A model generated the notes under the pieces. The model was given only the letters and a program-made list of their open reading frames with translations, was not told where the DNA came from and searched no databases. A stretch of DNA of 63,962 nt, counting the filler, from Candidatus Hydrogenedentota bacterium (GTDB lineage Bacteria; JBFMHD01): NCBI GenBank assembly GCA_040752395.1. It is 10 parts of 10 records of this genome, joined end to end, with 100 filler letters (N's around TTAATTAATTAA, not from the genome) between each part and the next. Parts side by side here need not be neighbours in the genome. Positions count along the whole stretch, not along the records: positions 10,089 to 30,122 come from JBFMHD010000021.1; 9 more parts are not named here. One strand, 5' to 3'. Made by a program: the position numbers and the translations under genes. Below, piece by piece: positions 1,613 through 29,141 of this stretch (within the stretch, counting starts at the first letter, position 1; each line of letters begins with the position of its first letter).

Positions 1613-1613
1613 A

Positions 1614-3077: not shown

Positions 3078-3084
3078 CTCCTTC

Positions 3085-4708: not shown

Positions 4709-4713
4709 ATCAA

Positions 4714-5055: not shown

Positions 5056-5057
5056 AT

Positions 5058-12589: not shown

Positions 12590-12630
12590 AAAATAATAAA
12601 TCCGAAATAAATCTGTTTTGTGTTTCGAAT

Positions 12631-13203
12631 TTAGTATAAGAAATATATAACCAGGTCTACAAATAATGTCAACTGGTTAATTGAACCTGATTTTTTCAAA
12701 CTTAACGAGTCTATCGTGTTTATAAATCTCGATTGCTTCATATCTTTTAAGAACCCGATAATGGATTTGAAATCCCCTGATAACGTAACTCTAACTGGGT
12801 ATTCACGATAATCCTGTTTAATGATAACTTCAAGTGGAATCAGTCTTATGAGTTGTAACGAGTTTGACTCAATTGCTTTATCTATCTCAGAAAAAAATAA
12901 CGAACTTTTGTCTCGGTCTCCTAAATGTTTTGAAATGTACTCGTATTTTTTCTCTATCTCCTGCTTGAAACTCGTTATGTTCTCCTGTTCTTTTAACAAT
13001 GAATCTATCTTTGCTATCTCGGTATTCAATGAATTGTAAACACCGAGCCTTGTATCTTTAATCTGTTTTAATGGTTTGATACCATAGTAATAAACAAGAA
13101 TTATGCTTGCGGGTATCAACAGATAAACTATAACCCTCAAACTTATATAAAAAGTTAATCTCTTGTTCTTGTCCATTAAACTGAGCCTCTTTGACTGATT
13201 CAT
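12631..13203 (-). CDS. pilO: PilO/GspM-like protein
   Basis: TM, coiled coil, YREYPVRVTLSGDFKSIIGFL ferredoxin-like domain. Confidence 0.75.
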   Translation of the reverse strand: MNQSKRLSLMDKNKRLTFYISLRVIVYLLIPASIILVYYYGIKPLKQIKDTRLGVYNSLNTEIAKIDSLLKEQENITSFKQEIEKKYEYISKHLGDRDKSSLFFSEIDKAIESNSLQLIRLIPLEVIIKQDYREYPVRVTLSGDFKSIIGFLKDMKQSRFINTIDSLSLKKSGSINQLTLFVDLVIYFLY

Positions 13204-13212
13204 ATTTCGTAT

Positions 13213-14640
13213 CTATTTCATAACGAACTGTATTTGAAACATAATCTCTCCTTCATGGTATTCTGCACCTTTTAGCTCAACGTTTGAAAATTGTTGTGAA
13301 TTCTCAAGATTTTTCATAAACTCAGTTATACCTGCATAACTCGTAGAACTACCTATAACCTCAAACCTGTGACCTGTTGCCAGTTCTTTCTCAAGTATAA
13401 TTGCCTGGTTTTTCCCGGCTGAATCCTTCAATAGTTTCATATACGAAAACTGGTCTTTATCCTGAACAGTATCCCCGGGTTTCGAATTTATGTTAAGTTC
13501 TTTAAAGGCAATTTGTTCAGGCACCAGGTCTGACAGAGACTCAAGCAGAGATCCCCAGTCAGGCGTTACTGAGAGAGGATTATAAATACTGAAAAATCTG
13601 CGAATTATATCCTGAACCCTGCTATCAACAGTTTTCAACTCCTCAATTTTTTTCAGTTTCTCTACATACACGGCATTGCTTCGTGATATCTCCTCCTCGA
13701 TTCTGTTTATATCCTCTCTATATCCTGTTATATACATACGTGAAATCAGAAACACCAGAATTATTGCTGTAATGCTTAACACAAGAGAATGGCTGAGTCT
13801 CTTTTTCTCAGTTTTTATTAACCTCGTCTGTTCCGGGTAAAGGTCTTTCCCCACTCTTTTCATTGAACAGAGGACGTTATAAAGAAGGGTTGAAACATTT
13901 TGCATAACTTCAGGAAGCTCTTCGATACAAAACTGTTTATGGTCTAAAAATTTCATCTTCAGTTTCTGGATAAAATCATTATCTCCAAGCAGTATAAACC
14001 TTTTCACCGAGCCAGGTATTGCAAAAACGTAATCATACACATTCTTAAAAACGTTGTTTTTATCTATAACATTCTGTCTTAAGAGAATCTCATCTTTCTG
14101 AACCAGTATAAAAGTCATAATGTTCTTATATATAAAAAATAGAGGTAGTGGTAAAGTAAGTGACCTGAAATACCTGGATTGTTTAATGAATCTCAAGATT
14201 ATTAATGGTAGCGGCAAAATATAAATTATCTCGAACCCGTTCTGTTCAAATGACTGAATCAGGTCATTAATAAAATCTCTGGGTGCATAATACAGCATTA
14301 TATATTTTTTTGACTCGTAACCTGATCCCACATCTGCTATACCATAATACATATCATCAAGATTGATTTTCAGTTTGTCTTCAAATTCGGATTCAAGCAC
14401 TTCTTTTTGGTTCGTGGATTTTAAAGTATCAGTCAGAGGGTATTGTCCTAAGTTTAAAGGCTGTCCATAAAGAGACACTCCTATAGATACAGGTGTCGGA
14501 GTAAAATCTTTTTTTATTGATGATATAACAGCATTAAAATCGTTGTTAACCAGGGTATATTCACGATAAACGTAGTCGTGATACAGAGCAGTAACAGTAT
14601 TTTTGTTTACCACAAGATACAGACGTCTTTTTTGATTCAT
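13213..14640 (-). CDS. PilM-like/PilN (GspL-like) fusion protein
   Basis: Degenerate cytoplasmic domain, one TM, coiled coil, C-terminal WGSLLESLSDLVP...ITEFMKNLENS PilN domain; ATG at 14640 preferred as start. Confidence 0.65.
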   Translation of the reverse strand: MNQKRRLYLVVNKNTVTALYHDYVYREYTLVNNDFNAVISSIKKDFTPTPVSIGVSLYGQPLNLGQYPLTDTLKSTNQKEVLESEFEDKLKINLDDMYYGIADVGSGYESKKYIMLYYAPRDFINDLIQSFEQNGFEIIYILPLPLIILRFIKQSRYFRSLTLPLPLFFIYKNIMTFILVQKDEILLRQNVIDKNNVFKNVYDYVFAIPGSVKRFILLGDNDFIQKLKMKFLDHKQFCIEELPEVMQNVSTLLYNVLCSMKRVGKDLYPEQTRLIKTEKKRLSHSLVLSITAIILVFLISRMYITGYREDINRIEEEISRSNAVYVEKLKKIEELKTVDSRVQDIIRRFFSIYNPLSVTPDWGSLLESLSDLVPEQIAFKELNINSKPGDTVQDKDQFSYMKLLKDSAGKNQAIILEKELATGHRFEVIGSSTSYAGITEFMKNLENSQQFSNVELKGAEYHEGEIMFQIQFVMK

Positions 14641-14652
14641 TGAACTATCTTC

Positions 14653-14687
14653 TGGACATAAATTTAACAAAATTGTATAATTATAAT
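14653..14687. promoter_or_regulatory. Compact bidirectional sigma70-type promoter
   Basis: TGGACA(14653-58)-N17-TATAAT(14676-81), 6 nt before ATG 14688; palindromic TATAATTATA also gives a minus-strand -10. Confidence 0.55.
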
Positions 14688-16418
14688 ATGAAAAAGATTT
14701 TATATTGTCTATTAATATTTAGCTGTTTTATATCTCTGGTATTTGCCGACCCTGACCTGTCGCCAAATATAACCCTGGATTTGAAAGAAGTGGATGCAAG
14801 AGACGTGTTCCGGGCAATAAGCACACAGAAAGAGTTGAACGTAGTTGTTGATGACAACGTTCAGGGTAAAGTGACACTTCATTTAAGTGACGCTACTGTA
14901 AAAGAAGCGTTTCAGGTCATACTTGAGCTTCTGAACGCAGAGATGGAAATAGAGGGGAACATATTAAAAATTAAACCAAAGGGAGAGGAGAAGATAGAGC
15001 CAGTAAAAAATATTGAGATAAAGTTGAGAGAAGATAATAAAATAGACGTAAATTTAAATAATGCTTCTGCTGAAGAAGTATTTAAGGAATTATCTGATAA
15101 AACAGGAGAGAACATAGTTTTAAGTTCCGAGGTAACCGGCTCGGTTAAACTTGATTTAAAAGGCATAGAGTTCAACACTCTTTTAAACGTGATAGCGGAT
15201 CTGGTGTCTGCAAAGATAAAGAGAGAGGATAACATCTACAAAGTTATTCCCTATAGTAAAGAGGAGAAGAAGGAGTCAGAGTTCGACGTAGAGATAAAAG
15301 ATGGGAGATTAAGTCTTAACGTGCAGGATATAGACATAAGTGAGCTTCTGAGAACCATAGCGGATAAATCCGGGTTTGATTTGATTCTGCTTGGTTCTGT
15401 GAAAGAAAAAGTGAACGTAAAACTGACTGATGTAGAACTGGATACTGCGCTCAATCTTATACTTCGCGGTACAAGGTTCGGGATAAGGATAGAAGATAAT
15501 CTTGTTACAATCGGAGAGAATCTGCCTGCTGCACCATCTGCTCCGGTTATTGGCCAGACATCAGTCATAAGATTGAGCTACATAAAATCAGAAGAGATAC
15601 CTTCGCTTTTACCACCTACAATTCCTGCACAGTCTCTTAAGGTTTTAAAGGAACAGAACTCTATAGCGTTTCGCGGTACTGACGAACAGATAAAAGAACT
15701 TGAAGAATTTGTGCATACCATAGACATAAAACCACCTGTGGTGATGCTTGATATGCTGATAGTGGATTATCTGGATAACGTGGACAAAAACATAAACTTT
15801 AGTTCTACGCTTGGAACCGGGGAGAACCAGATAACCGAGACATTGAGAGGCGACCAGGCCGGGTTTATAACCGCGAACGTGATAAGGTCTACGTGGAAAA
15901 CGATTGATGACCAGTTTGCTATAACACTCCAGGCTTTGATAGACGAGAACAAAGCAGAGGTCAAGGCAGAACCGAGGATATCAACCGTAAGCGGTCAGGA
16001 AGCAAAGATACGCGTGGAGAACGAGGAATATTTCAGAGTGACCACAGGTAACGTTGAGACACCGTTAACACAGCTTGAAAAAGTTACTTCGGGAATATCG
16101 TTAACCATAACGCCTTACGTTGCTTCTGGTAATAACTCCATCACGGTAAAAATCAACGCTACTGTGAGCCAGCCTACAGGTACAACCGGGGACAATCTTC
16201 CTGCAATAAAAAGCCGGGAAGCTTCAACTCAACTTGTGGTAGATGATGGACAAACCATAGTTATCGGTGGTCTTCTTCAGTCAGTACAGTCCACGAGTGT
16301 GCAACGGTTCCCCATACTATCAAGCATACCCGTAGTCGGACTATTATTCAAGAACACCACAAAACAGGATAGGAAAAGTAACCTTGTTTTCTATATCACG
16401 CCTACTATAGTGAAGTAG
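14688..16418 (+). CDS. Secretin (PilQ/GspD family) with three STN-like N-domains
   Basis: Signal peptide; three LDLKEVDARDVF-type repeats; AEPRISTVSGQEA, DGQTIVIGGL, PILSSIPVVGLLF, FYITPTIV. Confidence 0.9.
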   Translation: MKKILYCLLIFSCFISLVFADPDLSPNITLDLKEVDARDVFRAISTQKELNVVVDDNVQGKVTLHLSDATVKEAFQVILELLNAEMEIEGNILKIKPKGEEKIEPVKNIEIKLREDNKIDVNLNNASAEEVFKELSDKTGENIVLSSEVTGSVKLDLKGIEFNTLLNVIADLVSAKIKREDNIYKVIPYSKEEKKESEFDVEIKDGRLSLNVQDIDISELLRTIADKSGFDLILLGSVKEKVNVKLTDVELDTALNLILRGTRFGIRIEDNLVTIGENLPAAPSAPVIGQTSVIRLSYIKSEEIPSLLPPTIPAQSLKVLKEQNSIAFRGTDEQIKELEEFVHTIDIKPPVVMLDMLIVDYLDNVDKNINFSSTLGTGENQITETLRGDQAGFITANVIRSTWKTIDDQFAITLQALIDENKAEVKAEPRISTVSGQEAKIRVENEEYFRVTTGNVETPLTQLEKVTSGISLTITPYVASGNNSITVKINATVSQPTGTTGDNLPAIKSREASTQLVVDDGQTIVIGGLLQSVQSTSVQRFPILSSIPVVGLLFKNTTKQDRKSNLVFYITPTIVK

Positions 16419-16424
16419 CCTCTT

Positions 16425-16940
16425 ATGAGAGAAATACGAAGTATGAGAGGAGTATCACTTGTAGAATTGCTTGTTACGATTGGAATAGTGGGGTGCGGAA
16501 TCGTAATGATAATTAACGGCTACCATAGATATGTGAAAAATATCAACAATGTTGAGATACGCTTGCGCGCAGCTCAGGTGCTTGAGAACATCAAAGAAGA
16601 AATAATGGTAAAAAAATATAAAGACAATTCTCCGAATATGGTGTTTGGTCCTGAGCCTGGAGAAATCCAGAAAATTAGAAGCACACTTAACGATATTGAT
16701 GATTATAATGAGTTGTTTACTGAAGTGGTTGATTCCCACGGAGTACCGCCTGGTGGTTATGAAAACTATTTTATCCGGGTTGATGTATATAATTTTAACA
16801 TAGAAGAAAATAAAGAAGTATCAAGGCTTGAAGATACGGGTACAAGAAAGATAGTGATACAGGTTTTGTATAAAGATAGGGTTATTAACAAAGTTGAAAT
16901 AATAAAAACAGATAGTGAGAAACCTTATGGAAATCACTAA
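16425..16940 (+). CDS. Minor pilin/pseudopilin
   Basis: Prepilin cleavage motif RG|VSLVELLV. Confidence 0.8.
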   Translation: MREIRSMRGVSLVELLVTIGIVGCGIVMIINGYHRYVKNINNVEIRLRAAQVLENIKEEIMVKKYKDNSPNMVFGPEPGEIQKIRSTLNDIDDYNELFTEVVDSHGVPPGGYENYFIRVDVYNFNIEENKEVSRLEDTGTRKIVIQVLYKDRVINKVEIIKTDSEKPYGNH

Positions 16941-17068
16941 ATACAAAATTCTAAATACTAAACGAACCCACATTTCAAATGACCAGAGATTAAAATAATA
17001 TGATTTAGAGACAAGAACGTTGCAGTTTGCTACAAACATTTTATTTCGGATTTCGAATTTATTATGTT

Positions 17069-17545
17069 ATGATTTCTAAAGACCATGGTTTTACATTAAT
17101 AGAGATTCTCGTAGTCATAGCAATATTCAGTATAGTTGCTCTTATGCTATTCCAGTTGTTCAACTCCGCGGTAAGAGTAGTTACCAGAGTAAAGCAGGTT
17201 CTTATCGAGTTAGATAAGGTCGAACTGTTTGAGTATAAAATACGTGACGAGATTAGAAATTGTCTGGACATACTGTATAACGATGGACGTGGCATAACGT
17301 TATGGGTACTGGATAAAAATAAGGATAAAATACCTAACTATGATGAGTTGAGAGCATACTACTGGGATGGTGATGAACAAGGTGTTCTTTACAAAATTGA
17401 GAACGGAATAAAAGAGACAGTTTTTGAGAACGTAAACTATGTTGAATGGAAAGTTGATACTTATGACAGAGCAACGTTAGTAGAATTAAAAATCAAACTA
17501 CGGGATAAACATTACTGGATACTGGAAACAAACTATAAATTCTAA
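17069..17545 (+). CDS. Minor pilin/pseudopilin (PilW/GspJ-like)
   Basis: MISKDHG|FTLIEILVV; ATG at 17069. Confidence 0.85.
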   Translation: MISKDHGFTLIEILVVIAIFSIVALMLFQLFNSAVRVVTRVKQVLIELDKVELFEYKIRDEIRNCLDILYNDGRGITLWVLDKNKDKIPNYDELRAYYWDGDEQGVLYKIENGIKETVFENVNYVEWKVDTYDRATLVELKIKLRDKHYWILETNYKF

Positions 17546-17645
17546 ATCCAAAATACGAAGTACGAAAAAATCTCAAACGTTTAAGATAACTTTATTTTGT
17601 TTCGGATTTAGAATCTCGAGTTTTCTGATTTCGAATTTATTTATT

Positions 17646-18638
17646 ATGAGCAACAATAAAGGAATTATAGCAGTTTACGCTACCATAATACTGATATTTG
17701 CAGGATTATGTGGCATAACAATTATGAGGTACTTATCCCCAAACCTCAAGCTACAGAAAAGAAGAATAATCAAGTTGAAGAATGAATGCACAATCGAGAG
17801 CGGGTTTGAGATAGGACTTTTCAATATAAATAAAGACGTGTTATTCAGGGCAGATGGTACTGAAACTTGTCCTTTTATAAACTATAGATTTAACGAAAGA
17901 GATATCAAAGTCAGTGTATGTGAGATTAACGGACAGAAAAGCAGACTTGTTATATGCTCAGAGCTAAAGAATGGGGACCAAAAAAGCATACAGGTATCAG
18001 TAAATACTCCGTTATTATATACCATTGTTACAAAGAATAGACTTAACCAGAATTTTTTATCCGTTATAAAAGGCGACGTATACATTGAGAAAGAGGGCGA
18101 GTTTGAGGGAAGTATCCAGGGATACGTTTCTTGTATTGAAAATACTGATATAAACGGTAAAGACATAAGAAAATCCATAACTACAGAGAAACTCATCATT
18201 CCTGAATATGACCGGAACTGGATAGAGAAACAGGATGATATGATAAGGATACTGAATAGTAGAGTTACAGAATTAAAACTGCGTGATAAAAAACTCTACC
18301 GGCGAGGCAATCTCACCATATCTGACAGCGATCTAAAAGATTGCTGTATATTTGTTGATGGAGATCTCACCATCGAGAACAGATTCAATCTCAGTAGCAC
18401 AAAATATGTACCATCGATTGTAGTGCTCGGTGATATATTTATAGTAACGGACAACGCAGAACTTGAGGGATTAATTGATGCAACCGGTAAAATCACTTTA
18501 AATGGTACAGGGTCTGTCAAAGGCACAATAATATCTGAATCTCTGGAGATTTATGGCAAATGGGATTTTAACTGGAACAAAGAACTTCTTTATAAATTTC
18601 CACACATAAAACCCGAAATTAAAATCACCCGATTTTAG
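17646..18638 (+). CDS. PilX/GspK-like minor pilin with beta-helix-like C-terminus
   Basis: KG|IIAV leader lacking Glu5; repeated IFVDGDL / GLIDATGKI / GTIISE motifs. Confidence 0.65.
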   Translation: MSNNKGIIAVYATIILIFAGLCGITIMRYLSPNLKLQKRRIIKLKNECTIESGFEIGLFNINKDVLFRADGTETCPFINYRFNERDIKVSVCEINGQKSRLVICSELKNGDQKSIQVSVNTPLLYTIVTKNRLNQNFLSVIKGDVYIEKEGEFEGSIQGYVSCIENTDINGKDIRKSITTEKLIIPEYDRNWIEKQDDMIRILNSRVTELKLRDKKLYRRGNLTISDSDLKDCCIFVDGDLTIENRFNLSSTKYVPSIVVLGDIFIVTDNAELEGLIDATGKITLNGTGSVKGTIISESLEIYGKWDFNWNKELLYKFPHIKPEIKITRF

Positions 18639-18869: not shown

Positions 18870-18899
18870 AAAGCCCCGTGTTACAAAAACCGGGGCTTT
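18870..18899. terminator. Bidirectional intrinsic terminator
   Basis: AAAGCCCC...GGGGCTTT stem directly after the nfnB stop, between convergent units. Confidence 0.6.
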
Positions 18900-20298
18900 A
18901 ATTTTCTTTTAAATATTCATCGATACTTCTTGCGGCAATCTTACCCTGACCCATCGCTAATATCACAGTCGCAGCACCACTTACTATATCGCCACCTGCA
19001 AATACACCCTTCTTTGAGGTTGCCATTGTCTTTTCATCTACAACAATAGTACCCCATTTTGAGATTTCAAGTCCCGGGGTTGTTCTTGGGATAAGCGGAT
19101 TTGGTTTGTTTCCGAGTGCCGGGATAACCGTATCAACATCAATTATAAACTCGCTGTCAGGAATTGTTATAGGTCTTCGTCTACCGCTCTCATCCTGCTC
19201 ACCTAACTCCATACGATAACATTCTATTCCGATTACTCTACCCTGTTCATCACCCAATATTCTTTTAGGATTTGTTAAGAAATGAAACACAATACCCTCT
19301 TCCTCAGCATGGTGTATCTCTTCTATTCTTGCAGGCATCTCTTTTCTGCTACGCCTATATACAACGGTAGTTTTGGCACCACTTCTTATAGCTGTTCTTG
19401 CAGAATCCATTGCGACATTTCCACCACCTACAACTACAGTTTTTTTACTCACAACAGCTGGTGTAGCATATTCTGGAAAAAGATACGACTTCATAAGGTT
19501 CGAACGAGTAAGATATTCATTAGCAGAATATACTCCTATAAGATTCTCACCCGGGACACCAAGAAACATTGGTAACCCTGCACCTGTTCCGATAAAGATA
19601 GCATCAAAACCAGACTCAAGTAGCTCATCAATACTTGCTGTCATCCCTACAACAAAGTCTGTCCGTATCTTAACACCCATCATTGTGAGATATGATATTT
19701 CGCTTTTAACTATCTCTTTTGGTAACCTGAACTCAGGTATTCCGTAGCTAAGCACGCCACCTGGTTCGTGTAATGCCTCAAAAATTGTAACATCGTGTCC
19801 AAGTTTGATCAGGTCGCCTGCTACAGTTAATCCTGCAGGACCAGACCCAATAATTGCAACTTTTTTATTTGTCTGCTTTTTAATCTCAGGACACGTTATA
19901 ACTCCGTACTCACGTTCATAATCAGCGGCAAACCGTTCAAGCCTGCCAATTGCGACAGGCTCGGTCTTTTTTGCTAATACACATTTTTCTTCACACTGTG
20001 TCTCCTGGGGACAGACCCTGCCTGTTGTTGCAGGTAACGAATTCTGTTCTTTTAGTTTATGAGCTGCTTCAATAAATTTTCCTTCTTCTATAAGCGAGAT
20101 AAAACCCGGTATATCGATATTTACCGGGCATCCTTGTATGCACGCAGGTTTTTTACATTTAAGACAACGTTGAGCTTCCTTGATAGCTATCTCTGGCGGA
20201 AATCCATAAGGTACCTCATTATAATTATGTCTTCTTTTTAACGGGTCTTGTTCTGGCATCTTCTGTCTTGGGATCGCCATTCTCTCTTTAGGATCCAT
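18898..20298 (-). CDS. nfnB: NfnB-like (GltD/SudA family) NADPH-binding flavo-iron-sulfur subunit
   Basis: RCLKCKKPACIQGCP, GRVCPQETQCEEKC, GSGPAG, YGIPEFRLPK, GGGNVAMD, YRRS; an NfnA domain lies immediately upstream. Confidence 0.85.
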   Translation of the reverse strand: MDPKERMAIPRQKMPEQDPLKRRHNYNEVPYGFPPEIAIKEAQRCLKCKKPACIQGCPVNIDIPGFISLIEEGKFIEAAHKLKEQNSLPATTGRVCPQETQCEEKCVLAKKTEPVAIGRLERFAADYEREYGVITCPEIKKQTNKKVAIIGSGPAGLTVAGDLIKLGHDVTIFEALHEPGGVLSYGIPEFRLPKEIVKSEISYLTMMGVKIRTDFVVGMTASIDELLESGFDAIFIGTGAGLPMFLGVPGENLIGVYSANEYLTRSNLMKSYLFPEYATPAVVSKKTVVVGGGNVAMDSARTAIRSGAKTTVVYRRSRKEMPARIEEIHHAEEEGIVFHFLTNPKRILGDEQGRVIGIECYRMELGEQDESGRRRPITIPDSEFIIDVDTVIPALGNKPNPLIPRTTPGLEISKWGTIVVDEKTMATSKKGVFAGGDIVSGAATVILAMGQGKIAARSIDEYLKEN

Positions 20299-20311
20299 CT
20301 ATTATCCCCTT

Positions 20312-20412
20312 TGACAAGTTAAAAGTTAAAAGTAAAGAAAGCGAAAATATACACTTCCTTGCCGTATCTTTCAATCTTTTAATCTTTGTGCCTTTGTGCC
20401 TCTTGCTTCTAA
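20312..20412. repeat. Repeat module (AAAGTTA, TCTTTCAA and TTTGTGCC units)
   Basis: About 60 nt AAAGTTAAAAGTAAAGAAAGCGAAAATATACACTT...GCCGTATCTTTCAATCTTT shared with about 42191-42250. Confidence 0.8.
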
Positions 20413-22866
20413 TTAATGACATATTGAATGATCCTGGGGTAATGATTTAATCTCTTCTAAATTATAAGCGTTTAATCTCTGCATAAGCTCTAACCAGTTA
20501 ATTTTGTGGCCATCAAGAAATGTGCCATCAACACAAACAAATTTTGTCTGGTCACCTACGGATACCCTGCAAGCGCCACACATACCTGTGCCATCCATCA
20601 TTATCGAATTAAGAGCGGTCATAGTTGGGATACCTAAATTTTTAGTAGACTCACTTACTAACATCATCATAAAAGCACAACCTACTATAAACACCTGATC
20701 TATGGTTTCACCTTGTTCTGCAAGTAATGTAATAGCCTCGCCTACCCCTCCTTTTATTCCATAAGAACCATCCTTTGTTGCGATTAATAGCTTATCTGAA
20801 TATTCAGCTATCTTATCTTCCCGGTATAAAAGATAATGTGTAGAGGCTTCAATTATAGATATCACTCTATTTCCTGCTTTTTTCAATTCACGGCAAATCG
20901 GTAAAATCGCGCCAACACCAAAACAGCCACCACCACATACAACTGTGCCGTATCGCTTAATCGAAACAGGGTTACCAAGTGGTCCTACAAAATGTGCTAA
21001 TGTATCACCTGCGGAAAGCATTACCATCTCTCTACTTGATCTCCCCACCTCCTGCACAATCAAAGTTACAGTCCCATGCTCGACGTTCCAATCAGCTATT
21101 GTATATGGTATTCTTTCTGATTTATCATTAACCATCGCTATCACGAACTGGCCTGGTTTACATTTTTTTGCGATATCCGGTGCTTGTATAGTAATCGTAT
21201 GAAAATTAGGGACTATCTCTTGTTTTTCTACAATTTTGAACTCTGTCTTTTTAGTTATGTCTTCTTGCCTCTCAATTTTCATAATAGTTCTTAACGCACC
21301 AAGGATATCTGCCAAATAATGACCTCGATAATACCTCGGCAAATCTTTTATGTCTTCAAGTGGCGAAGACAGAGGCATCTCCTGTCTTCTGTCTTCTAAG
21401 GTGGCAGTGCCACCAGCCAAATTTCTATATGAAGGCTTTTGACGCCATATAGTTGAGTTAAAATTCTGCGCAAATTGCACAGATCTTACGATATAAGAAT
21501 CTAATTGAGCTCCCATCTCTTTAGCGATATCACAAATTATTCTGCTTACTGTGTTGCTATCAGGTGGTGGAACCAGCGCTTCACCCGTTTCCTGTGGTAA
21601 AGTGAGTGCAAATAGAACATCAGCGGATTCACTCATAAAAGAAGGGAATACATCAAGTGCAATAATTACCTCTAAATTTTTTAATGAATCTTTATCTATA
21701 TAATCTCCGGTAGTTATAACAGCTTTTGTTTCCTGGTTGAGTTTTATTTTATCATCTTGTTTTTCTACGACATGGCAGTTTTCCGAGTTCATAACGTTTT
21801 TAGTAAAATTTTTCAGTATATCAATCTCTTCGATTAAAGCGTTGTAATATATAATAGTAGCGAATTGGTTGCCTTTATAATTAAGTAATTTAGCTGCTGC
21901 GTGTTTTACAGCATCAGTCCAGGGGACTTTTCGTATACCATCCTGAAGTTTAATATAATTAGATGTTATACGTTTAGGCGATTCAAATAATTGTGGCAGA
22001 ATAAATCGTGCTCCTATGCATATCTTGTGTTCTTGTTTGAAACTCTTTGCCATAGCACCGATTACTTTATTATCTTTTATACGGAGATAGAAATCGCAAT
22101 TAATCGAACAGAGGTCACAAATCGTCTCTTTTATTTTATCTTCTTTGCCATACCATTTTGCATATCTATCAGAGAGCGCACCTGTGGTGCATATATCAAC
22201 ACAAGCTCCACAGAACAAACAACCTGTTTCAGTGTGGTCTTGATAAAAAGCTGTGCCGATACGAGCCGCTCTCCCTCTGTTAATAAAAGCGATAAATGGT
22301 TTTTTATGCAAATTCTGACATACTCTGACGCACCTCCCACAGAGTATGCAAAGATTATAATCTCTATCCATAAATGGGTCTCTTCTTTCAAGCGGGATGT
22401 TGTTGTAAATTACAGGTAATCCGATATCATCAATATTATACTCTTTTACAAGTTTTTTAAGCTCACATATATCAGTATTACTGCAGGTATTACATCTTAT
22501 AGTCTTTCCTGTTTTAGTTGGCTTTGGTCGATACTTTTCACAGAGTTCTCGATGCAAGCAGACTATACAGGGACTTGTATGATTACTTAACAGGAGCTTA
22601 ATTATATTCTTTCTGTAGCTTATAATTTCAGGTGTATTTGTTTTTATAGACATCCCATTTTTAACAAAAGTATTACAGGACGTTTGAAACCCTTTCATTC
22701 CCTCGATCTCAACAATGCATATTCTACAGCCGCCAAATGGTTCTAATTCTTCGTGGTTGCATAAGTAGGGGATAATAATCCCGGCTCGTTTAGCTGCTTC
22801 AATAACTGTCTCATCAGGGTTTGCTTCAACTATTTTACCATCAATAGTTAAGATAATTTTATCCAT
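20413..22866 (-). CDS. Fusion of a NuoG/HydA-like Fe-S N-terminus and truncated molybdopterin-family scaffold to a C-terminal NfnA (SudB-like) domain
   Basis: LCNH...GGCRIC...SC [2Fe-2S]; HxxxCxxC; CILCGRCVRVC and CLFCGACVDIC; CDLCSINC; C-terminal PGQFV, ERIPYTIAD, GPLG, DGTGMCGACR, CVDG. Confidence 0.85.
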   Translation of the reverse strand: MDKIILTIDGKIVEANPDETVIEAAKRAGIIIPYLCNHEELEPFGGCRICIVEIEGMKGFQTSCNTFVKNGMSIKTNTPEIISYRKNIIKLLLSNHTSPCIVCLHRELCEKYRPKPTKTGKTIRCNTCSNTDICELKKLVKEYNIDDIGLPVIYNNIPLERRDPFMDRDYNLCILCGRCVRVCQNLHKKPFIAFINRGRAARIGTAFYQDHTETGCLFCGACVDICTTGALSDRYAKWYGKEDKIKETICDLCSINCDFYLRIKDNKVIGAMAKSFKQEHKICIGARFILPQLFESPKRITSNYIKLQDGIRKVPWTDAVKHAAAKLLNYKGNQFATIIYYNALIEEIDILKNFTKNVMNSENCHVVEKQDDKIKLNQETKAVITTGDYIDKDSLKNLEVIIALDVFPSFMSESADVLFALTLPQETGEALVPPPDSNTVSRIICDIAKEMGAQLDSYIVRSVQFAQNFNSTIWRQKPSYRNLAGGTATLEDRRQEMPLSSPLEDIKDLPRYYRGHYLADILGALRTIMKIERQEDITKKTEFKIVEKQEIVPNFHTITIQAPDIAKKCKPGQFVIAMVNDKSERIPYTIADWNVEHGTVTLIVQEVGRSSREMVMLSAGDTLAHFVGPLGNPVSIKRYGTVVCGGGCFGVGAILPICRELKKAGNRVISIIEASTHYLLYREDKIAEYSDKLLIATKDGSYGIKGGVGEAITLLAEQGETIDQVFIVGCAFMMMLVSESTKNLGIPTMTALNSIMMDGTGMCGACRVSVGDQTKFVCVDGTFLDGHKINWLELMQRLNAYNLEEIKSLPQDHSICH

Positions 22867-22869
22867 AAA

Positions 22870-24744
22870 TCAATTTTTACAGACTCCCTTTTTAACAGCA
22901 GAAACCTTTGTGGGACAAACATCAAGACATTGACCACATCTTATGCATTTTTTAGAATCTATACTGTGTACCTGCTTCAATTCGCCAGTAATTGCATTTA
23001 CAGGACAGATTTTAAAACATAGATTGCAACCAGTACATTTATCAATATCAATAAAATATTCAATCAAGTCTTTACAAACTAAAGCCTGGCAGTGTTTTTC
23101 TTTTATATGCGCTTCATATTCGTTTCTAAAATATTTTATAGTAGAGAGCACGGGGTTTGGCAGGGTCTGACCAAGACCACATAAACTGCATAATCTTATA
23201 GTCTCAGATAATTCCTCAAGTTTATCAATATAAGATAACGAGGCATTACCTTGAGTTATCGCAGTTAAATATTGAAGTAGATGTACCGAACCGATCCTGC
23301 AGGGAATACATTTGCCACAGGATTCATTGTTTGTGAATTCTAAAAAGTATCGCGCTATATCAACTATACAGGTATCTTCATCTAAAACAATCATACCACC
23401 AGAACCCATAATAGAACCGGCTTTTGTTAGTTCTTCATAATCGACTTTCAAATCCATAAGCTCAGCAGGTATGCAGCCGCCTGAAGGGCCACCTGTCTGA
23501 ACAGCTTTTAATCTTTTGTTATTTGGGATGCCACCACCTATATCATATATTACTTCTTTAAGCGTTATGCCCATAGGGACTTCAATAAGCCCTGTATGCT
23601 TAACTTTTCCTGCAAGCGCAAAGACTTTTGTACCTTTGCTCTTTGTAGTGCCTAACTGAGCGAACGTATCCGCTCCTTTTTGTATGATCCATGGAACATT
23701 TGCGAAGGTCTCGACATTATTTATAACAGTCGGTTTTTTGTGTAATCCACAGACAGCAGGGAACGGTGGTCTCGATGACGGCATTCCGCGTCTGCCCTCA
23801 ATCGAAGCGATTAATGCGGTCTCTTCACCACAGACAAATGCTCCAGCACCCTCCTTAATCTCAATCTCAAAATCAAACCCGCTCCCCATTATATCCCTCC
23901 CTAAAAACCCCAGATTATATGCTTGCTCTATAGCGATTTTAAGTCTTTTAACAGCAAGCGGATACTCTGCCCTTACATATATATATCCGTTTCTCGTACC
24001 GACTGCATAAGCAGCAATAATCATACCTTCAAGTACAGAATGTGGGTCACTCTCAAGGACAGCTCGATCCATAAACGCTCCCGGGTCTCCCTCATCTGCA
24101 TTACATATTATGTATTTAATATCGCTCTCAGTATTTCTTGCGATCTCCCATTTTACGCCAGTGTGGAAGCCGGCACCACCTCGTCCTCTCAACATAGAAT
24201 CCTTTACCTCTTTAATGACATCAGCTGGTGTTATGGTAAATGCTTTTAATAAAGCAGAATAACCATCTCTTGCTATGTAATGGTTTATATTTACCGGGTC
24301 TATGATACCAGCGTTCCTTAATACTATTCGCTGCTGTTTGTTTAACATTGGCAACTCAGTAATTTGTTTTATGCCTGGTATTTTCATCTCGCCGGTCGTG
24401 CAAAGTGCGAGGTCAATTCTTGGATTATTTTTTAAAATAACGTCATCTATAATTTGTGGTAGAATTTTTTCGTTAACGTTCCCGTACATTATGCGTCTTT
24501 TATCTGGTAAACATATCTCTACAATGGGTTCTGCATAACACATTCCGATACAACCTACTTCGTAAATCTCACATTGTATTTTTTTAGTTTTAATCTCTTT
24601 TTTAAAAGAATCACAGACTTTTAATGCACCCGAAGCTATACCGCAAGTTGCAGCCCCTATTAACATTCGTATCTGTTTGCTATTATTGAAGTTTTCCCAT
24701 TCTATCTCTGCTTTTCTTTTTAACTCTTTGAATCTCTCAATCAT
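22870..24744 (-). CDS. NuoF/HydB-like FMN- and NADH-binding subunit, long bifurcating-type architecture
   Basis: N-terminal thioredoxin-like domain; GRGGAGF, NADEGDPGAFMDR, GGPSGG, ESCGKCIPCR; C-terminal 2x[4Fe-4S]. Confidence 0.92.
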   Translation of the reverse strand: MIERFKELKRKAEIEWENFNNSKQIRMLIGAATCGIASGALKVCDSFKKEIKTKKIQCEIYEVGCIGMCYAEPIVEICLPDKRRIMYGNVNEKILPQIIDDVILKNNPRIDLALCTTGEMKIPGIKQITELPMLNKQQRIVLRNAGIIDPVNINHYIARDGYSALLKAFTITPADVIKEVKDSMLRGRGGAGFHTGVKWEIARNTESDIKYIICNADEGDPGAFMDRAVLESDPHSVLEGMIIAAYAVGTRNGYIYVRAEYPLAVKRLKIAIEQAYNLGFLGRDIMGSGFDFEIEIKEGAGAFVCGEETALIASIEGRRGMPSSRPPFPAVCGLHKKPTVINNVETFANVPWIIQKGADTFAQLGTTKSKGTKVFALAGKVKHTGLIEVPMGITLKEVIYDIGGGIPNNKRLKAVQTGGPSGGCIPAELMDLKVDYEELTKAGSIMGSGGMIVLDEDTCIVDIARYFLEFTNNESCGKCIPCRIGSVHLLQYLTAITQGNASLSYIDKLEELSETIRLCSLCGLGQTLPNPVLSTIKYFRNEYEAHIKEKHCQALVCKDLIEYFIDIDKCTGCNLCFKICPVNAITGELKQVHSIDSKKCIRCGQCLDVCPTKVSAVKKGVCKN

Positions 24745-24746
24745 AC

Positions 24747-25187
24747 CTATATCTCATCCAGCAGTTTTCTAACCATTTGTGGCGTCATTCGACCATAAAC
24801 ATTATTGTCTATAACGACAACAGGTGCAAGAGCACAGGAGCCAAAACAAGCCACTCTTAAAAGACTGAACTTGTAATCTTTAGTAGTCTCTCCTGATTTT
24901 ATGCCGAGATAATTACATACATCTTCATAGATACGTTGACCACCGCGAACATGACAGGCAGTACCAAGACAGATATTAATGATATGGTCTCCTGGTTTAG
25001 TGAACCTGAATTGAGCAAAAAACGTCGCAACACCGTATATATCATTTTCCGAGACATCAATATATTTTGCAATCTCTTTAAGTGATTCTCTTGATATATA
25101 TCCCTGGTTTTTTTGTATTTCCTGAAGAAGCGGTATCAAGCTATCTCGTTCTGGTTTATATTTTTTAAATATCTCTTGAAAATTCAT
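24747..25187 (-). CDS. NuoE/HydC-like [2Fe-2S] subunit
   Basis: CLGTACHVRG...CFGSCALAP; ATG at 25187 preferred as start. Confidence 0.92.
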   Translation of the reverse strand: MNFQEIFKKYKPERDSLIPLLQEIQKNQGYISRESLKEIAKYIDVSENDIYGVATFFAQFRFTKPGDHIINICLGTACHVRGGQRIYEDVCNYLGIKSGETTKDYKFSLLRVACFGSCALAPVVVIDNNVYGRMTPQMVRKLLDEI

Positions 25188-25296
25188 TTTTGATCCATCA
25201 ACCTGACCCTGGTCCAATCCGTCAAACCCTTTAGGCTCACGGATGAGCACGGGACATTTTTTGCAAAGACTGCGAAATTGTTAACCCTGTGCCGCT

Positions 25297-28200
25297 CTAT
25301 TTAGAATAATCCATTTGAGCTAAACGTTTATAATGTGTGTAACGTTCAAGCATAGCTTTTTCTGCTTTTTCATAAAGCTCTTCAGCTCTATCTGGAAATT
25401 GTTTCTTTAATGAACTGAACCTTGTCTCGGCCATTAAAAATTCCTTGAATTTACCATTCGGCTCCTTTGATTCGAAAATAAACGGATTTTTACCTTCTTT
25501 AGCGAGCAAAGGGTTATAACGGTACACAGGCCAGTACCCGCATTCTACAGCAAGCCTCTCTTCCTCAATCGACTTTGCCATATCAAGCCCATGATTTATA
25601 CATGGGCAATAACAAATTATAAGTGATGGCCCCTTATACGATTCAGCTTCAATTAAAGCATTCAGATACTGCTGTTTGTTATAACCTATTGCACAACTTG
25701 CAACATAGACATATCCATAAGATAGAGCCATCATGCCTAAATCTTTTTTTCTTACATCTTTACCAGCCATAGCAAAGCGTGCAACCGCAGAAAGCTGTGT
25801 GGCTTTAGATGCCTGACCACCTGTATTCGAATATACCTCTGTATCAAGAACAAATAGATTAATATTAACACCTGTAGAAATAATATGATCAAGTCCACCA
25901 TACCCGATGTCATAAGCCCAGCCATCTCCACCAACACACCAGATGCTCCTATCAACAAAATAATCTTTTAATTCAATAACCCTTTTTATGGCCTCTTTAT
26001 TTTCGGTGCTTGCCTGATTATATGCTTTATCAAGAAGGATACAGGTTCTATCAGCTGCTTCCATAGCTTCACTATCAACTTTATCCCATAACTCTTTATT
26101 TTTATTTAACGCCAGGCTAAGCTCGTGCGGGATTTTTAATTCAAGTAGTCTGTTTATTTTATTAAGTAGCTGTTTACGATTAGCGTTTACAGCAAGCCGC
26201 ATACCAAAACCATACTCTGCATTGTCTTCAAATAAAGAATTAGCCCATGTAGGTCCCCTACCAGCTTTTGTTACACAATATGGTATTATGGGGAAAGTAC
26301 CGCCGTAAATAGAAGAACACCCTGTAGCATTTGCTATCATCAAACGTTCACCAAATAACTGGGTAATTAATCTCAAATACGGTGTTTCACCGCAGCCACC
26401 ACAAGCGCCATGAAACTCAAGTAATGGTTTTAAAAACTGGCTGCCTTTAAGTTGAGAAGGTTTGGTTCCGTCAAGGATGTTATCAGGCAGATTTTCAAAA
26501 AATTCTGAATTTTCACGTTCGAGATTGGCACGTTCGGCTTCTATCGGTGTTATAACAAGCGCATCTTTGGGACAGGTGTTAACACAACTCCCACAACCTA
26601 CACAATCTTCTATATATACTTGGATCCGGTATTGTAAGTTGCGCTCATTCTTTGTTGTGGACTTAAGAGTTTTAAATGTAGGGGGTGCATTTTTTAGATC
26701 GTCAGGTAGAATCTGTTTTGAACGGATTACTGAATGTGAACATACATACGAACATTGATTACACTGGATACATTTTTCAGGAACCCAGTGAGGTACAAAC
26801 GGTGCTATCCCGCGTTTCTCAAGTTTGCTTGTTGCAGTAGGGATCGCACCATCAACTGGCATCTTTGAAACAGGTATCTCATCACCTTTTAGTCTCATTA
26901 TCGGTTCTATCACGCTTTTTTCGAAGTCCGAGGCATTATCAGGAATAAGTTTTATAACAGGAGCTGATTTAGAAACTTTATCAGGGATTGGTATCTCTAA
27001 AAGTGCTTCAGCGGTTTTATCAACACAGTCCCAGTTCATCTGCACTACTTTGTCGCCTTTGGCTCCATAAGTCTTCTTTATCGCATCCTTAAGCAATTTA
27101 ATGGCTTTTTCTTCAGAAAGCACATTTGAGATTTTAAAGAACGCAGCCTGCATCACAGAATTGATTCTGCCACCCAACCCAACTTCTTTTGCAATCTTTA
27201 AAGCATCGATATTGTAAAACTTTATTTTTTTGGTTATAATTGTTTTCTGCATATCTTCTGTCAGATGCTCAAAAACCTCATCTTTAGACCAGGGCGAGTT
27301 TAATAAAAATACACCTCCTTCTTTGATCCCTTCTAATATATCATATCTTCCAATATATGCCGGGTTATGAAGCGCAATGAACTCGAATGTCGTTGGGAGA
27401 TAAGATGATTGTATTTTTGATTTACCAAACCTTAAAAACGATATTGTAATACCACCTGATTTCTTTGAATCATAAACAAAATATCCCTGGGCATTCATAT
27501 CAGTATTATCACCGATAATTTTAATTGAGTTTTTACAAGAACCGACAGTGCCATCAGACCCATAGCCCCAGAATTTACACCGCACAACGCCTTCAGGCTC
27601 GGTCTCGATATGTTTATGAATTTTTATTGATGTATGCGTAACATCATCAGTGATACCAACAGTGAAATTATGAAAAGCCTCGTTATCAAGATGGTCATAA
27701 ACAGCTTGCACCATTGACGGCGTAAACTCTTTTGAAGATAAACCATATCTGCCACCGATAATTTTTATATCACTGTCTTTTAACGCAGCTATAACATCAA
27801 GATATAACGGTTCACCGATAGCACCTGGCTCTTTTGTCCTATCAAGTACAGCTATTTTTTTTACGGTTTTGGGGATAGAGTCGATAAAATCAGGGACTGA
27901 GAAAGGTCGATATAACCGAACCTTTATAGCACCCACTTTTTCTCCTTTTTTGTTTAAATAATTCACTGTCTCTTCAATCGTGTCGCATGAAGAACACATC
28001 GCAATAATTATTTTTGTAGCTTGCGGGTCACCAACATAGTCAAATAATTTATAAGAACGCCCGATTTTCTCTGCTATAAGCCCCATATATTTTTTAACAA
28101 TCTGAGGGAGCCGATCATAATATCTATTAACTGTTTCTCTTCCTTGAAAATATACGTCCGGGTTCTGAGCACCAACCTTGATCATAGGTCTATTAGGACT

Positions 28201-28824
28201 TAATGCTCTCTCTCTAAACTCTTGCACAAATTTCATATCAAGCAGCTCTGACATAGTCTCATATGGTATCATCTCAACTTTCTGAACCTCATGAGACGTC
28301 CGAAAACCATCAAAGAAGTTCAAGAAAGGGACTCGCGATTCTAATGTTGCAAGATGCGAGACTAAAGCTAAATCCATAACTTCCTGTATTGAAGAAGCTG
28401 CCATTAAAGCAAAACCTGTATTCCTAACACCCATAACATCAGAATGGTCTCCAAAAATAGAGAGGGATTGACATGCAAGCGAACGCGCAGAGACATGAAA
28501 AACCACTGGCAAGAGCTCACCCGCTATTTTATGCATATTAGGTATCATTAAAAGTAGTCCTTGAGCCGCTGTAAAAGTAGAACACATAGCCCCGGCTGTT
28601 AAAACTCCATGTACAGCACCAGCTGCACCACCCTCAGACTGCATCTCTATTACATCAACTATCTCTCCAAACAGATTCTTTCTACCTTTCACAGCCCACT
28701 CATCAACCAGCTCTCCCATTGGTGAAGATGGTGTAATAGGATAGATTGCAGCCACTTCGCTGAAAGCATAAGCCACATACGAAGCGGATTCATTCCCGTC
28801 TATCGCTTGTTTTATAGTGTTCAT
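25297..28824 (-). CDS. nifJ: Pyruvate:ferredoxin (flavodoxin) oxidoreductase, single chain
   Basis: YPITP, EMQSEGGAAGA, FFDGFRTSHE, two CxxCxxC ferredoxin motifs, GDGWAYDIG TPP motif; start ATG 28824. Confidence 0.96.
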   Translation of the reverse strand: MNTIKQAIDGNESASYVAYAFSEVAAIYPITPSSPMGELVDEWAVKGRKNLFGEIVDVIEMQSEGGAAGAVHGVLTAGAMCSTFTAAQGLLLMIPNMHKIAGELLPVVFHVSARSLACQSLSIFGDHSDVMGVRNTGFALMAASSIQEVMDLALVSHLATLESRVPFLNFFDGFRTSHEVQKVEMIPYETMSELLDMKFVQEFRERALSPNRPMIKVGAQNPDVYFQGRETVNRYYDRLPQIVKKYMGLIAEKIGRSYKLFDYVGDPQATKIIIAMCSSCDTIEETVNYLNKKGEKVGAIKVRLYRPFSVPDFIDSIPKTVKKIAVLDRTKEPGAIGEPLYLDVIAALKDSDIKIIGGRYGLSSKEFTPSMVQAVYDHLDNEAFHNFTVGITDDVTHTSIKIHKHIETEPEGVVRCKFWGYGSDGTVGSCKNSIKIIGDNTDMNAQGYFVYDSKKSGGITISFLRFGKSKIQSSYLPTTFEFIALHNPAYIGRYDILEGIKEGGVFLLNSPWSKDEVFEHLTEDMQKTIITKKIKFYNIDALKIAKEVGLGGRINSVMQAAFFKISNVLSEEKAIKLLKDAIKKTYGAKGDKVVQMNWDCVDKTAEALLEIPIPDKVSKSAPVIKLIPDNASDFEKSVIEPIMRLKGDEIPVSKMPVDGAIPTATSKLEKRGIAPFVPHWVPEKCIQCNQCSYVCSHSVIRSKQILPDDLKNAPPTFKTLKSTTKNERNLQYRIQVYIEDCVGCGSCVNTCPKDALVITPIEAERANLERENSEFFENLPDNILDGTKPSQLKGSQFLKPLLEFHGACGGCGETPYLRLITQLFGERLMIANATGCSSIYGGTFPIIPYCVTKAGRGPTWANSLFEDNAEYGFGMRLAVNANRKQLLNKINRLLELKIPHELSLALNKNKELWDKVDSEAMEAADRTCILLDKAYNQASTENKEAIKRVIELKDYFVDRSIWCVGGDGWAYDIGYGGLDHIISTGVNINLFVLDTEVYSNTGGQASKATQLSAVARFAMAGKDVRKKDLGMMALSYGYVYVASCAIGYNKQQYLNALIEAESYKGPSLIICYCPCINHGLDMAKSIEEERLAVECGYWPVYRYNPLLAKEGKNPFIFESKEPNGKFKEFLMAETRFSSLKKQFPDRAEELYEKAEKAMLERYTHYKRLAQMDYSK

Positions 28825-28833
28825 GGACACGAT

Positions 28834-29135
28834 ACCTCCTCTGAAAAACATTGTAATTATAATAATATCAAGTAGAAGCAAGAAGCAAGATAACGGAAGA
28901 AGTGAGAAGTATCAGGACAGGCTACAGGCTACAGGCTACGGACTACAGCCGGCTGGAGCCAAAAGCCCAAAGCCTGCTGAAAAGTCTTGAGTCTTGAGTC
29001 TTGAGTCTCGAGTCCTGTTTTGACTCACGACTTGCGACTCACGACTCTTTTCATATCATCTTTAGTTTTTCATATATTGTGTAGAGCGCAAAAACGCAAG
29101 AACCCAAGAACCCAAGAACCTAAGAACCCAATTTA
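28834..29135. repeat. Mosaic repeat copy supplying the AGGAGGT SD of PFOR
   Basis: ACCTCCTCTGAAAAAC end; CAGCCGGCTG at 28946-28955. Confidence 0.9.
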
Positions 29136-29141
29136 GTCTCA

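What the first reader, a model, noticed from the sequence alone, without database searches (positions are those of the whole stretch)
18898..28824. PFOR operon encoding a HydABC/Bfu-type module fused to NfnAB: candidate double electron-bifurcating complex
Seen: order is PFOR, NuoE-like, NuoF-like, [NuoG-like Fe-S::NfnA] fusion, NfnB. The NuoF-like subunit has the long HydB architecture (N-terminal thioredoxin-like domain, GAFMDR, GGPSGG, C-terminal 2x[4Fe-4S]). The A subunit has no H-cluster motifs and only a truncated Mo-family scaffold; a full NfnA (DGTGMCGAC) replaces the catalytic domain. Established: HydABC/Bfu and NfnAB are two independent flavin-bifurcating families, and Sporomusa Stn and Thermococcus NfnABC use a GltD-like domain without NfnA. 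Inference: one complex with two NAD sites, one NADP site and two ferredoxin interfaces, reoxidising PFOR-reduced ferredoxin. I do not recognise this architecture as characterised.
Basis: partly seen in the sequence, partly recalled or inferred. Interest (0 to 1): 0.85.

Follow-up and report, generated by a model that had tools for sequence, protein, structure and literature searches.

The report
Two bifurcating modules wired in series
This operon joins two normally separate electron-splitting enzymes (a Bfu/HydBC core and an NfnSL pair) through a fused protein whose NAD-binding pocket has been rebuilt with two new cysteines, so it most likely encodes one uncharacterised machine that passes electrons from one splitter into the other to balance NADPH, NADH and ferredoxin.

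Summary
Observation confirmed. bfuC-bfuB-[bfuA::nfnS]-nfnL is real: 66 other full-length fusions, a second independent fusion lineage, and unfused five-gene operons C-B-A-S-L in many anaerobes. The NfnS domain has lost the NAD-binding signature (GGGVG to GGC[YF]G, GP to GC, Gly/Ala to Glu/Asp). Both cysteines are in 124 of 124 such domains and 0 of 105 ordinary NfnS. 56 of 58 Cys-type genes lie directly behind a BfuA, against 2 of 105 others. NfnL is unchanged. PFOR was in 0 of 29 related loci. Best reading (about 0.5): one complex with one NAD site (BfuB), in which BfuABC feeds the high-potential arm of NfnSL, giving about 6 Fd: 1 NADH: 4 NADP. Serial bifurcation has one precedent (class II benzoyl-CoA reductase, Bfu plus HdrA); Bfu plus NfnSL was not found in nine literature searches. 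The wiring is inferred; no complex model could be run. This scan noted the same operon six times before on other genomes.

The parts
25297..28824 (-). Homodimeric-type pyruvate:ferredoxin oxidoreductase; co-oriented neighbour, not a conserved part of the system
   Evidence: TIGR02176 1745 bits; 109 bp to bfuC, no terminator-like site in the gap; absent from 29 of 29 related loci
24747..25187 (-). bfuC (NuoE/HydC-like, C1 [2Fe-2S])
   Evidence: PF01257 E=2e-49; ATG at 25187; four Cys
22870..24744 (-). bfuB (long NuoF/HydB type: FMN/NAD site, B1, B2 site C459/T497/H546/C552/C557, B3/B4, three-Cys B5 site)
   Evidence: Best PDB hits 9n5u_B, 9bov_B, 7t2r_B, 8oh5_B at E<=5e-220; A223, M225, F303, GGPSG418-422 match the bifurcation-linked residues of T. 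sibiricus NfnB
21997..22866 (-). BfuA Fe-S part of the fusion (residues 1-290): clusters A1-A5
   Evidence: All ligand Cys/His invariant in 67 of 67 fusions; matches 7t2r_A, 8a6t_A, 6tg9_A
22465..22581 (-). Duplicated A3 motif H96-C100-C103-C109 ... C125-C128-C134: three spare cysteines, candidate extra metal site
   Evidence: 67 of 67; about 25-aa insertion against solved HydA/NiFe-A; also in some BfuA that have no NfnS beside them
21268..21984 (-). Shrunken molybdopterin-oxidoreductase scaffold without catalytic ligand
   Evidence: Model aligns to NuoG/Fdh/Nap scaffolds, Z about 21-23; the Fdh Mo-ligand loop seen in control Fdh subunits is absent here and in the unfused BfuA shown
20431..21246 (-). 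NfnS* domain (residues 541-812): FAD strand ERIPYT and Asp(Cys)3 [2Fe-2S] motif intact, NAD cleft rebuilt
   Evidence: Model vs 5jca_S Z 36.4, rmsd 1.9 A over 266 residues; C648, E673, C730, F732 invariant in 67 of 67
20677..20925 (-). The diagnostic residues C648 (20925-20923), E673 (20850-20848) and C730 (20679-20677)
   Evidence: C648/C730 in 124 of 124 Cys-type vs G in 105 of 105 and P in 104 of 105 others; NfnI, TmNfnA and PyrK have GGG[VI]G and GP/GAP
18898..20298 (-). nfnL (NfnB): bifurcating-FAD subunit, NADP(H) site, two [4Fe-4S]
   Evidence: 4ylf_B E=2e-164, 5jca_L E=5e-160; seven Cys, E121, R191 and NADP arginines R316/R324 kept in 54 of 54 Bfu-linked and 86 of 86 ordinary NfnL
21394..21505 (.). 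About 110-bp hairpin-rich dispersed repeat inserted in frame in the scaffold part (residues about 454-491); private to this genome, not part of the system
   Evidence: 10 matches in the genome, 7 near-full-length others at 87-90%; pLDDT<50 at residues 470-497

Best explanation
The four genes make one soluble flavo-iron-sulfur transhydrogenase with two bifurcation centres in series. SHOWN from sequence: BfuBC has the full Bfu cofactor set; BfuA keeps all five clusters but no catalytic centre; NfnL is an ordinary bifurcating-type subunit; NfnS keeps FAD and [2Fe-2S] motifs but its NAD cleft carries two new Cys and a carboxylate; this NfnS* occurs only behind BfuA and has fused to it at least twice. 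INFERRED: NfnS* no longer binds NAD; its FAD exchanges single electrons with the BfuA wire, probably through a new metal or dithiol site in the old NAD cleft; NAD(H) reacts only at BfuB. BfuBC merges NADH and reduced ferredoxin into mid-potential electrons, these replace NADH on the high-potential arm of NfnSL, and the NfnL FAD merges them with further ferredoxin electrons to reduce NADP. Net: 6 Fd(red) + NADH + 4 NADP+ = 6 Fd(ox) + NAD+ + 4 NADPH, against 2:1:2 for NfnSL or Stn. This would hold NADP at -385 mV with ferredoxin at only -420 mV, where plain Nfn reaches -350 mV; run backwards it would put 75% of NADPH electrons on ferredoxin.
For: Diagnostic residues 124 of 124 vs 0 of 105. Genomic coupling 56 of 58 vs 2 of 105; the two Cys-type exceptions have under 400 bp upstream. 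Other residues typical of ordinary NfnS are also lost (R675, D698, T709, K735); in the fusions position 707 is Gly in 62 of 67 where NfnI has Phe. NfnL shows no clade-specific change at its clusters or Arg, so the adaptation sits on the NfnS side. Two separate fusion lineages, about 830 aa and 1023-1080 aa. AF2 model pTM 0.79 for the whole 817 aa. BfuB signatures present. Serial coupling of a HydBC module to a second bifurcating flavin is shown for BCRII. Equilibrium potentials computed with NAD at -280 mV.
Against: No distances and no complex model were obtained, so contact between the NfnS* cleft and a BfuA cluster is not shown. That C648, E673 and C730 line the NAD groove rests on alignment to NAD-using homologues and recalled FNR-fold anatomy, not on coordinates. 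The Asp of the TxDGS motif (D699) is kept in 67 of 67 fusions. The Cys-type clade has one origin (support 92), so the association is one event retained, not many independent ones, and 30 loci come from one class. B3/B4 is absent in 2 and replaced by a GltD-like domain in 4 of 29 operons, so Bfu bifurcation to ferredoxin is not universal. Feeding -390 mV electrons into an FAD near -276 mV wastes about 110 mV unless the FAD is retuned. This copy has 14 changes at near-invariant columns against a median of 2.
Confidence: 0.48

Rival explanations
1. Same wiring, one bifurcation. BfuABC acts only as an NADH diaphorase and wire that replaces the lost NAD site of NfnS*; the net reaction is the ordinary Nfn reaction (2 Fd + NADH + 2 NADP), perhaps gated by BfuBC.
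For: B3/B4 missing in L186 and L187 and replaced in four operons; in BCRII, NADH alone reduced 68% of BamGHI; NADH potential suits the S-FAD (-276 mV).
Against: 23 of 29 operons keep B3/B4 and all 29 BfuB keep A-[FY]-M and GGPSG; a three-subunit module is a costly substitute for one NAD site.
Confidence: 0.18
2. Stn-like wiring. The distal [4Fe-4S] of NfnL passes electrons to cluster A3 of BfuA, as the GltD domain does in Stn/NfnABC. NfnS* is then either an inert adaptor (like NfnII-S) or an outlet to another high-potential acceptor, such as a disulfide handled by the C648/C730 pair.
For: In T. sibiricus NfnABC the path is FAD-A7-A6-A3-A2-A1-B1; P. furiosus NfnII has a blocked NAD site and does not bifurcate; the N5 Arg is also kept in non-bifurcating StnC, so R191 does not prove bifurcation.
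Against: NfnL has no conserved clade-specific surface change; both fusion lineages join BfuA to NfnS*, and no Cys-type representative was fused to anything else; no gene for a further acceptor is conserved beside the operon.
Confidence: 0.17
3. One reading: NfnS* still binds NAD(H), and the two modules work side by side on shared pools, or BfuABC takes its electrons from PFOR (Por-Bfu type).
For: FAD strand, [2Fe-2S] motif, D699 and the fold are kept; PFOR is 109 bp upstream; a four-subunit Por-Bfu has been predicted (PMC9304861).
Against: Gly-to-Cys in the GGGxG loop and an added carboxylate in all Bfu-linked copies; PFOR in 0 of 29 loci; an unconnected BfuABC without catalytic domain would have no third substrate.
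Confidence: 0.1
4. This particular copy is decaying while the family is functional.
For: Highest count of changes at near-invariant columns among 67 (14), a 14-aa deletion and an in-frame repeat insertion in the scaffold.
Against: Frame open, every cluster and flavin ligand intact; three other members have 12-13 such changes; it is the only NfnS-type gene found in a 94%-complete genome.
Confidence: 0.07

Closest known systems
Nfn-Bfu: StnABC of Sporomusa ovata (8oh5), NfnABC of Caldicellulosiruptor saccharolyticus (9bov) and Thermococcus sibiricus (9n5u)
   Same: BfuBC core, BfuA Fe-S wire on a NuoG/Fdh scaffold, GltD-type NADP(H) flavin; same three substrates expected.
   Different: There the GltD domain is inserted in BfuA, does not bifurcate, and 'there is no NfnA homologue in Stn' (PMC10482914). 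Here NfnL is a separate canonical subunit and NfnS* is the piece attached to BfuA.
NfnSL/NfnAB (P. furiosus NfnI 5jca, T. maritima 4ylf)
   Same: NfnL cofactor residues and NfnS fold, FAD strand and Asp(Cys)3 cluster.
   Different: NAD cleft of NfnS rebuilt; tied to BfuABC. [quoted passage not shown]
Class II benzoyl-CoA reductase BamBCDEFGHI (Bam-Bfu)
   Same: A HydBC-type confurcating module placed in series with a second, unrelated bifurcating flavin.
   Different: Second module is HdrA-type and receives Bfu output as its mid-potential donor; here it is NfnSL and the entry appears to be its high-potential arm.
P. furiosus NfnII/Xfn (5vj7)
   Same: An NfnS paralogue that has lost NAD binding.
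   Different: Blocked by a loop and an Arg, no new cysteines, no Bfu partner, shown to be non-bifurcating.
Hydrogenedentota sub-type I BfuB (B3/B4 replaced by DPD_II plus FAD domain)
   Same: The same BfuB::GltD-like form occurs in 4 of 29 related operons.
   Different: Described with an [FeFe] BfuA; the window's BfuB has ordinary B3/B4.

Membership tests
Bfu family (Schut et al. 2022) | BfuB with FMN domain and B1-B5 sites, including the B2 His and B3/B4 | tested here: met
   C459/T497/H546/C552/C557, two C-terminal Fer4; B5 site has three Cys as in 9n5u_B and 9bov_B
Bfu family (Schut et al. 2022) | BfuC with C1 cluster and BfuA with at least A1 and A2 | tested here: met
   PF01257; A1-A5 ligands invariant
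Bfu family (Schut et al. 2022) | Bifurcation-linked residues A-x-M, Phe and GGPSG | tested here: met
   A223, M225, F303, GGPSG418-422 align to A201, M203, F281, 396-400 of 9n5u_B
Bfu family (Schut et al. 2022) | Tightly coupled NAD and ferredoxin reaction with a third substrate | not testable with these tools
   Needs enzyme assay
Nfn-Bfu / Stn | GltD-like NADP(H) domain inside BfuA, no NfnS | tested here: not met
   No Pyr_redox or Fer4_20 domain in the fusion; NfnS domain present; NfnL separate
NfnSL (NfnI type) | NfnL with two [4Fe-4S] (one Glu-ligated), N5 Arg and NADP arginines | tested here: met
NfnSL (NfnI type) | NfnS with ERxPxT FAD strand and DGTGMCGxCR...CV cluster motif | tested here: met
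NfnSL (NfnI type) | NAD(H)-binding loops of NfnS (GGG[VI]G, GxR, GP) | tested here: not met
   GGCFG, EAS, GCAF in the window. Loss of binding itself is inferred
Fdh-Bfu / FeFe-Bfu | Mo/W-pterin ligand loop or H-cluster motifs in BfuA | tested here: not met
   Scaffold largely deleted; ligand loop of control Fdh subunits absent; all Fdh, NuoG and FeFe models far below cut-off
Por-Bfu | Conserved operon with four-subunit POR genes | tested here: not met
   PFOR here is the single-chain type and is not conserved beside the operon

The most novel reading that the evidence does not exclude
NfnSL has been turned into a plug-in module: its NAD pocket now holds a new metal centre built from C648, C730 and E673, possibly shared with the three spare cysteines of BfuA, that wires the S-FAD to the Bfu chain. 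The result is a widespread cascade transhydrogenase with two unrelated bifurcation mechanisms and a non-standard 6:1:4 ratio, which would let syntrophs and fermenters with weakly reducing ferredoxin make NADPH, or harvest extra reduced ferredoxin from NADPH.
Probability: 0.35. Interest if true: 0.88.

Novelty: new variant of a known kind. Interest (0 to 1): 0.72.

Why it matters
The field treats NfnSL and Nfn-Bfu as alternative solutions to one reaction, and NfnSL as a family with one member. A conserved operon that uses both, with a rebuilt NAD site as the likely junction, would be the second case of serial bifurcation and much simpler than the 1-MDa BCRII. It gives a direct test of whether bifurcation ratios can be changed by stacking modules. 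These genes are now annotated as plain NfnAB plus NuoEFG or formate dehydrogenase, so redox budgets for Aminicenantia, Syntrophales and other uncultured anaerobes may be mis-assigned. The GC[YF]G plus GC motif is a simple marker for the system.

Tried and rejected
Complex prediction of BfuA against NfnS* was not available (no job was folded), so the interface is untested. The single-chain models return no coordinates, so no cluster distances. Inter-domain covariation on 94 pairs (Neff 67) ranked A3-region residues against the rim of the NAD cleft, but it is confounded by the fused/unfused split and is not counted. No sequencing run was listed for the junction. No NfnS*-bearing protein of 1431-4085 aa scored at 1e-50 (weak). 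Open frames of about 1120 aa in G128 and G222 were run-on frames in GC-rich DNA, not fusions. Promoter and terminator counts did not exceed shuffles (44 vs 35.6; 9 vs 6.8). The spare-Cys motif was considered as a marker of NfnS* partnership and rejected, because BfuA without NfnS also carry it. Demmer et al. 2015 (NADH contacts in NfnA) was not held. Nine full-text searches gave no description of a Bfu plus NfnSL operon; subscription journals are not covered, Supplementary Table 1 of PMC9304861 was not in the text held, and bioRxiv supplements are closed. No close relative of the host genome was available.
Full report
Observation. Domain scans identify PFOR, a NuoE-like BfuC, a long NuoF-like BfuB, an 817-aa protein with a NuoG-type Fe-S head and an NfnA-type tail, and NfnB. 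A search with the junction region returned 78 proteins; 67 of them, the query included, are 800-870 aa, and all 67 carry the invariant ligands of both halves. The fusion is therefore real.

The Bfu half. BfuB is closest to the B subunits of T. sibiricus and C. saccharolyticus NfnABC, A. mobile NiFe-Bfu and S. ovata Stn. By those alignments it has the B2-site His546 with Thr in place of one Cys, B3/B4, and A223, M225, F303 and GGPSG, which PMC12018979 (passages) links to bifurcation. BfuA keeps A1-A5 in 67 of 67 fusions, plus a duplicated A3 motif with three spare cysteines. The Mo-family scaffold is cut to about 240 residues and lacks the ligand loop seen in control Fdh subunits; the longer unfused BfuA shown lack it too (that output was cut, so not every row was seen). 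The AF2 model (pLDDT 83.6, pTM 0.79) matches NfnS at Z 36.4 and NuoG/Fdh scaffolds at Z 21-23.

The Nfn half. NfnL is ordinary: all cluster ligands, R191 and the NADP arginines are kept in 54 of 54 Bfu-linked and 86 of 86 other copies, and only eight weakly different columns separate the two sets. NfnS is not ordinary. Against P. furiosus NfnI, GGGVG becomes GGCFG, LGFRT becomes IEAST and VGPAIMM becomes VGCAFMM. Among 229 aligned NfnS domains, C648 and C730 are present in 124 of 124 of one class, while the other class has Gly in 105 of 105 and Pro in 104 of 105; R675, D698, T709 and K735 are also lost. The class was defined by the two Cys, so the independent test is gene context: of 163 distinct NfnS in fetched loci, 56 of 58 Cys-type genes have a BfuA-type gene directly upstream (the other two have 14 and 353 bp of upstream DNA), against 2 of 105 others (87 of these with at least 1 kb upstream lack it, 16 are too short to judge). 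The sample is enriched for near hits, and 30 loci come from one class of bacteria, but the pattern also holds in the 28 new loci of the domain-wide draw (10 Cys-type with BfuA, 18 others without). That these residues line the NAD groove follows from alignment with NAD-using NfnI, TmNfnA and PyrK and from recalled FNR-fold anatomy; I could not check it on coordinates.

Operon and history. In 29 widened loci the order is C-B-A-S*-L, fused or not (some cut by contig ends; L188 has no adjacent bfuC), and PFOR appears in none. With the diagnostic columns removed, Cys-type NfnS form one side of a branch (support 92) and the short fusions nest among unfused forms. A profile search of 50%-identity representatives found 23 Cys-type proteins among the best 150; wherever one carried an identified extra domain it was BfuA. 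Three are 1023-1080 aa with a near-complete scaffold, and these long fusions fall in a starred clade (99) with unfused members, apart from the short fusions (87 rows, a subsample). BfuA and NfnS* have thus been joined at least twice. BfuB varies: 23 of 29 keep B3/B4 (one split by a frameshift), 2 lack it, 4 carry a GltD-like domain in its place.

Mechanism. The simplest account of these facts is that NfnS* no longer takes NAD and exchanges electrons with BfuA, leaving one NAD site, at BfuB. If both centres bifurcate, the ratio is 6 Fd: 1 NADH: 4 NADP. With NAD at -280 mV this equilibrates NADP at -445, -385 or -370 mV for ferredoxin at -500, -420 or -400 mV, against -390, -350 or -340 mV for plain Nfn. 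Wiring through the low-potential arm instead would give -335 mV or higher and would favour NADPH oxidation. I put about 0.48 on series coupling through NfnS*, 0.18 on the same wiring with BfuBC as a plain NADH entry, 0.17 on Stn-like wiring with NfnS* inert or serving another acceptor, 0.10 on two NAD sites or a PFOR-fed module, and 0.07 on decay of this copy. The host encodes RnfC, Nuo subunits, a NiFe large subunit, two small ferredoxins and two more long BfuB, and no FeFe hydrogenase was found; PFOR ferredoxin is a likely donor here but not a fixed partner.

Comparison with print. PMC9304861 (abstract, section 4 part 1, section 5 whole, section 6 part 1, supplement text search) lists Nfn-Bfu, Por-Bfu and Bam-Bfu but no NfnS-linked type. 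PMC6405883 (parts 1-3 of 7) lists four Nfn patterns, none with Bfu. PMC10482914 (passages) states that Stn has no NfnA homologue and Nfn no HydBC homologue. [quoted passage not shown] PMC12506544 (passages) shows that NfnII, with a blocked NAD site, does not bifurcate, a warning for the best reading. PMC11406978 (abstract, section 7) describes the BfuB::GltD-like form. PMC6085437, PMC8097209, PMC5736913, PMC3903129 and bioRxiv 10.1101/765248 were seen as passages only and do not describe the operon there. Nine searches found no account of it; journals outside the library were not covered.

Verdict. A real, widespread and apparently undescribed Bfu type: a member of the Bfu family by sequence, not a member of Stn/NfnABC, and carrying an NfnSL that fails the NAD-site test. 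The scan recorded the operon six times before on other genomes, once as a fusion and once with a rebuilt NADH pocket; I had reached the rebuilt-pocket reading before that look-up. New here are the counts tying the two cysteines to BfuA, the unchanged NfnL, the second fusion lineage and the lack of a conserved PFOR link. The electron path remains inferred.

Noticed in passing
window 21394-21505: About 110-bp repeat with two hairpins and TTAG at both ends, 10 matches in this genome, mostly outside long ORFs; this copy sits in frame inside the fusion gene and one other lies in a long open frame on C90. Folding z = -3.0. Looks like a small non-autonomous element domesticated as coding sequence (inference).
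   Followed up: partly
L211 (G000:C300) 1-6678: Second Bfu cluster in this genome: bfuC, a 131-aa gene without Pfam hit, long bfuB, a 231-aa HoxU-like Fe-S gene, then a 540-aa protein with a glutamate-synthase FMN domain and a PPDK_N protein. Possible Bfu type with a glutamate-synthase-like third module.
   Followed up: no
L210 (G000:C92) 315-3560 and L212 (G000:C138): A 1081-aa protein with a BfuA-type [2Fe-2S] head fused to HdrA-like domains (NF040770, 808 bits, below cut-off), and on another short contig a third long BfuB; both lie beside CBS/PHP/kinase-like genes. Possible Bfu plus HdrA pair split across contigs.
   Followed up: no
L021, L119, L185, L195: BfuB with B3/B4 replaced by a GltD-like domain that keeps NADP-type arginines, in operons that also have NfnS* and NfnL: up to three nucleotide-reactive flavins besides the S-FAD.
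   Followed up: partly
L032 378-2847; L079 2567-3421: A different altered NfnS (GYG[MS]/GYS loop, no new Cys pair); in L032 it follows a Mo-family oxidoreductase gene. Possibly a second NfnS lineage with a changed NAD site.
   Followed up: no
L197-L204, L001: In these operons an acetyl-CoA hydrolase/transferase-like gene and an RNase H-like gene commonly follow nfnL, and an alanine-dehydrogenase-like gene often precedes bfuC (names from my reading of the sequences, not from a scan).
   Followed up: no
window 28841-29140: Short tandem heptamer-like runs (such as repeated ggttctt, caagact and gtagcct) in the intergenic DNA upstream of PFOR; a similar short open frame start recurs before several genes in this genome.
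   Followed up: no
window 12104-18638: Type II secretion/type IV pilus-like genes (secretin, pilin-like and PilMNO-like ORFs) on both strands downstream of the operon (names from sequence reading).
   Followed up: no
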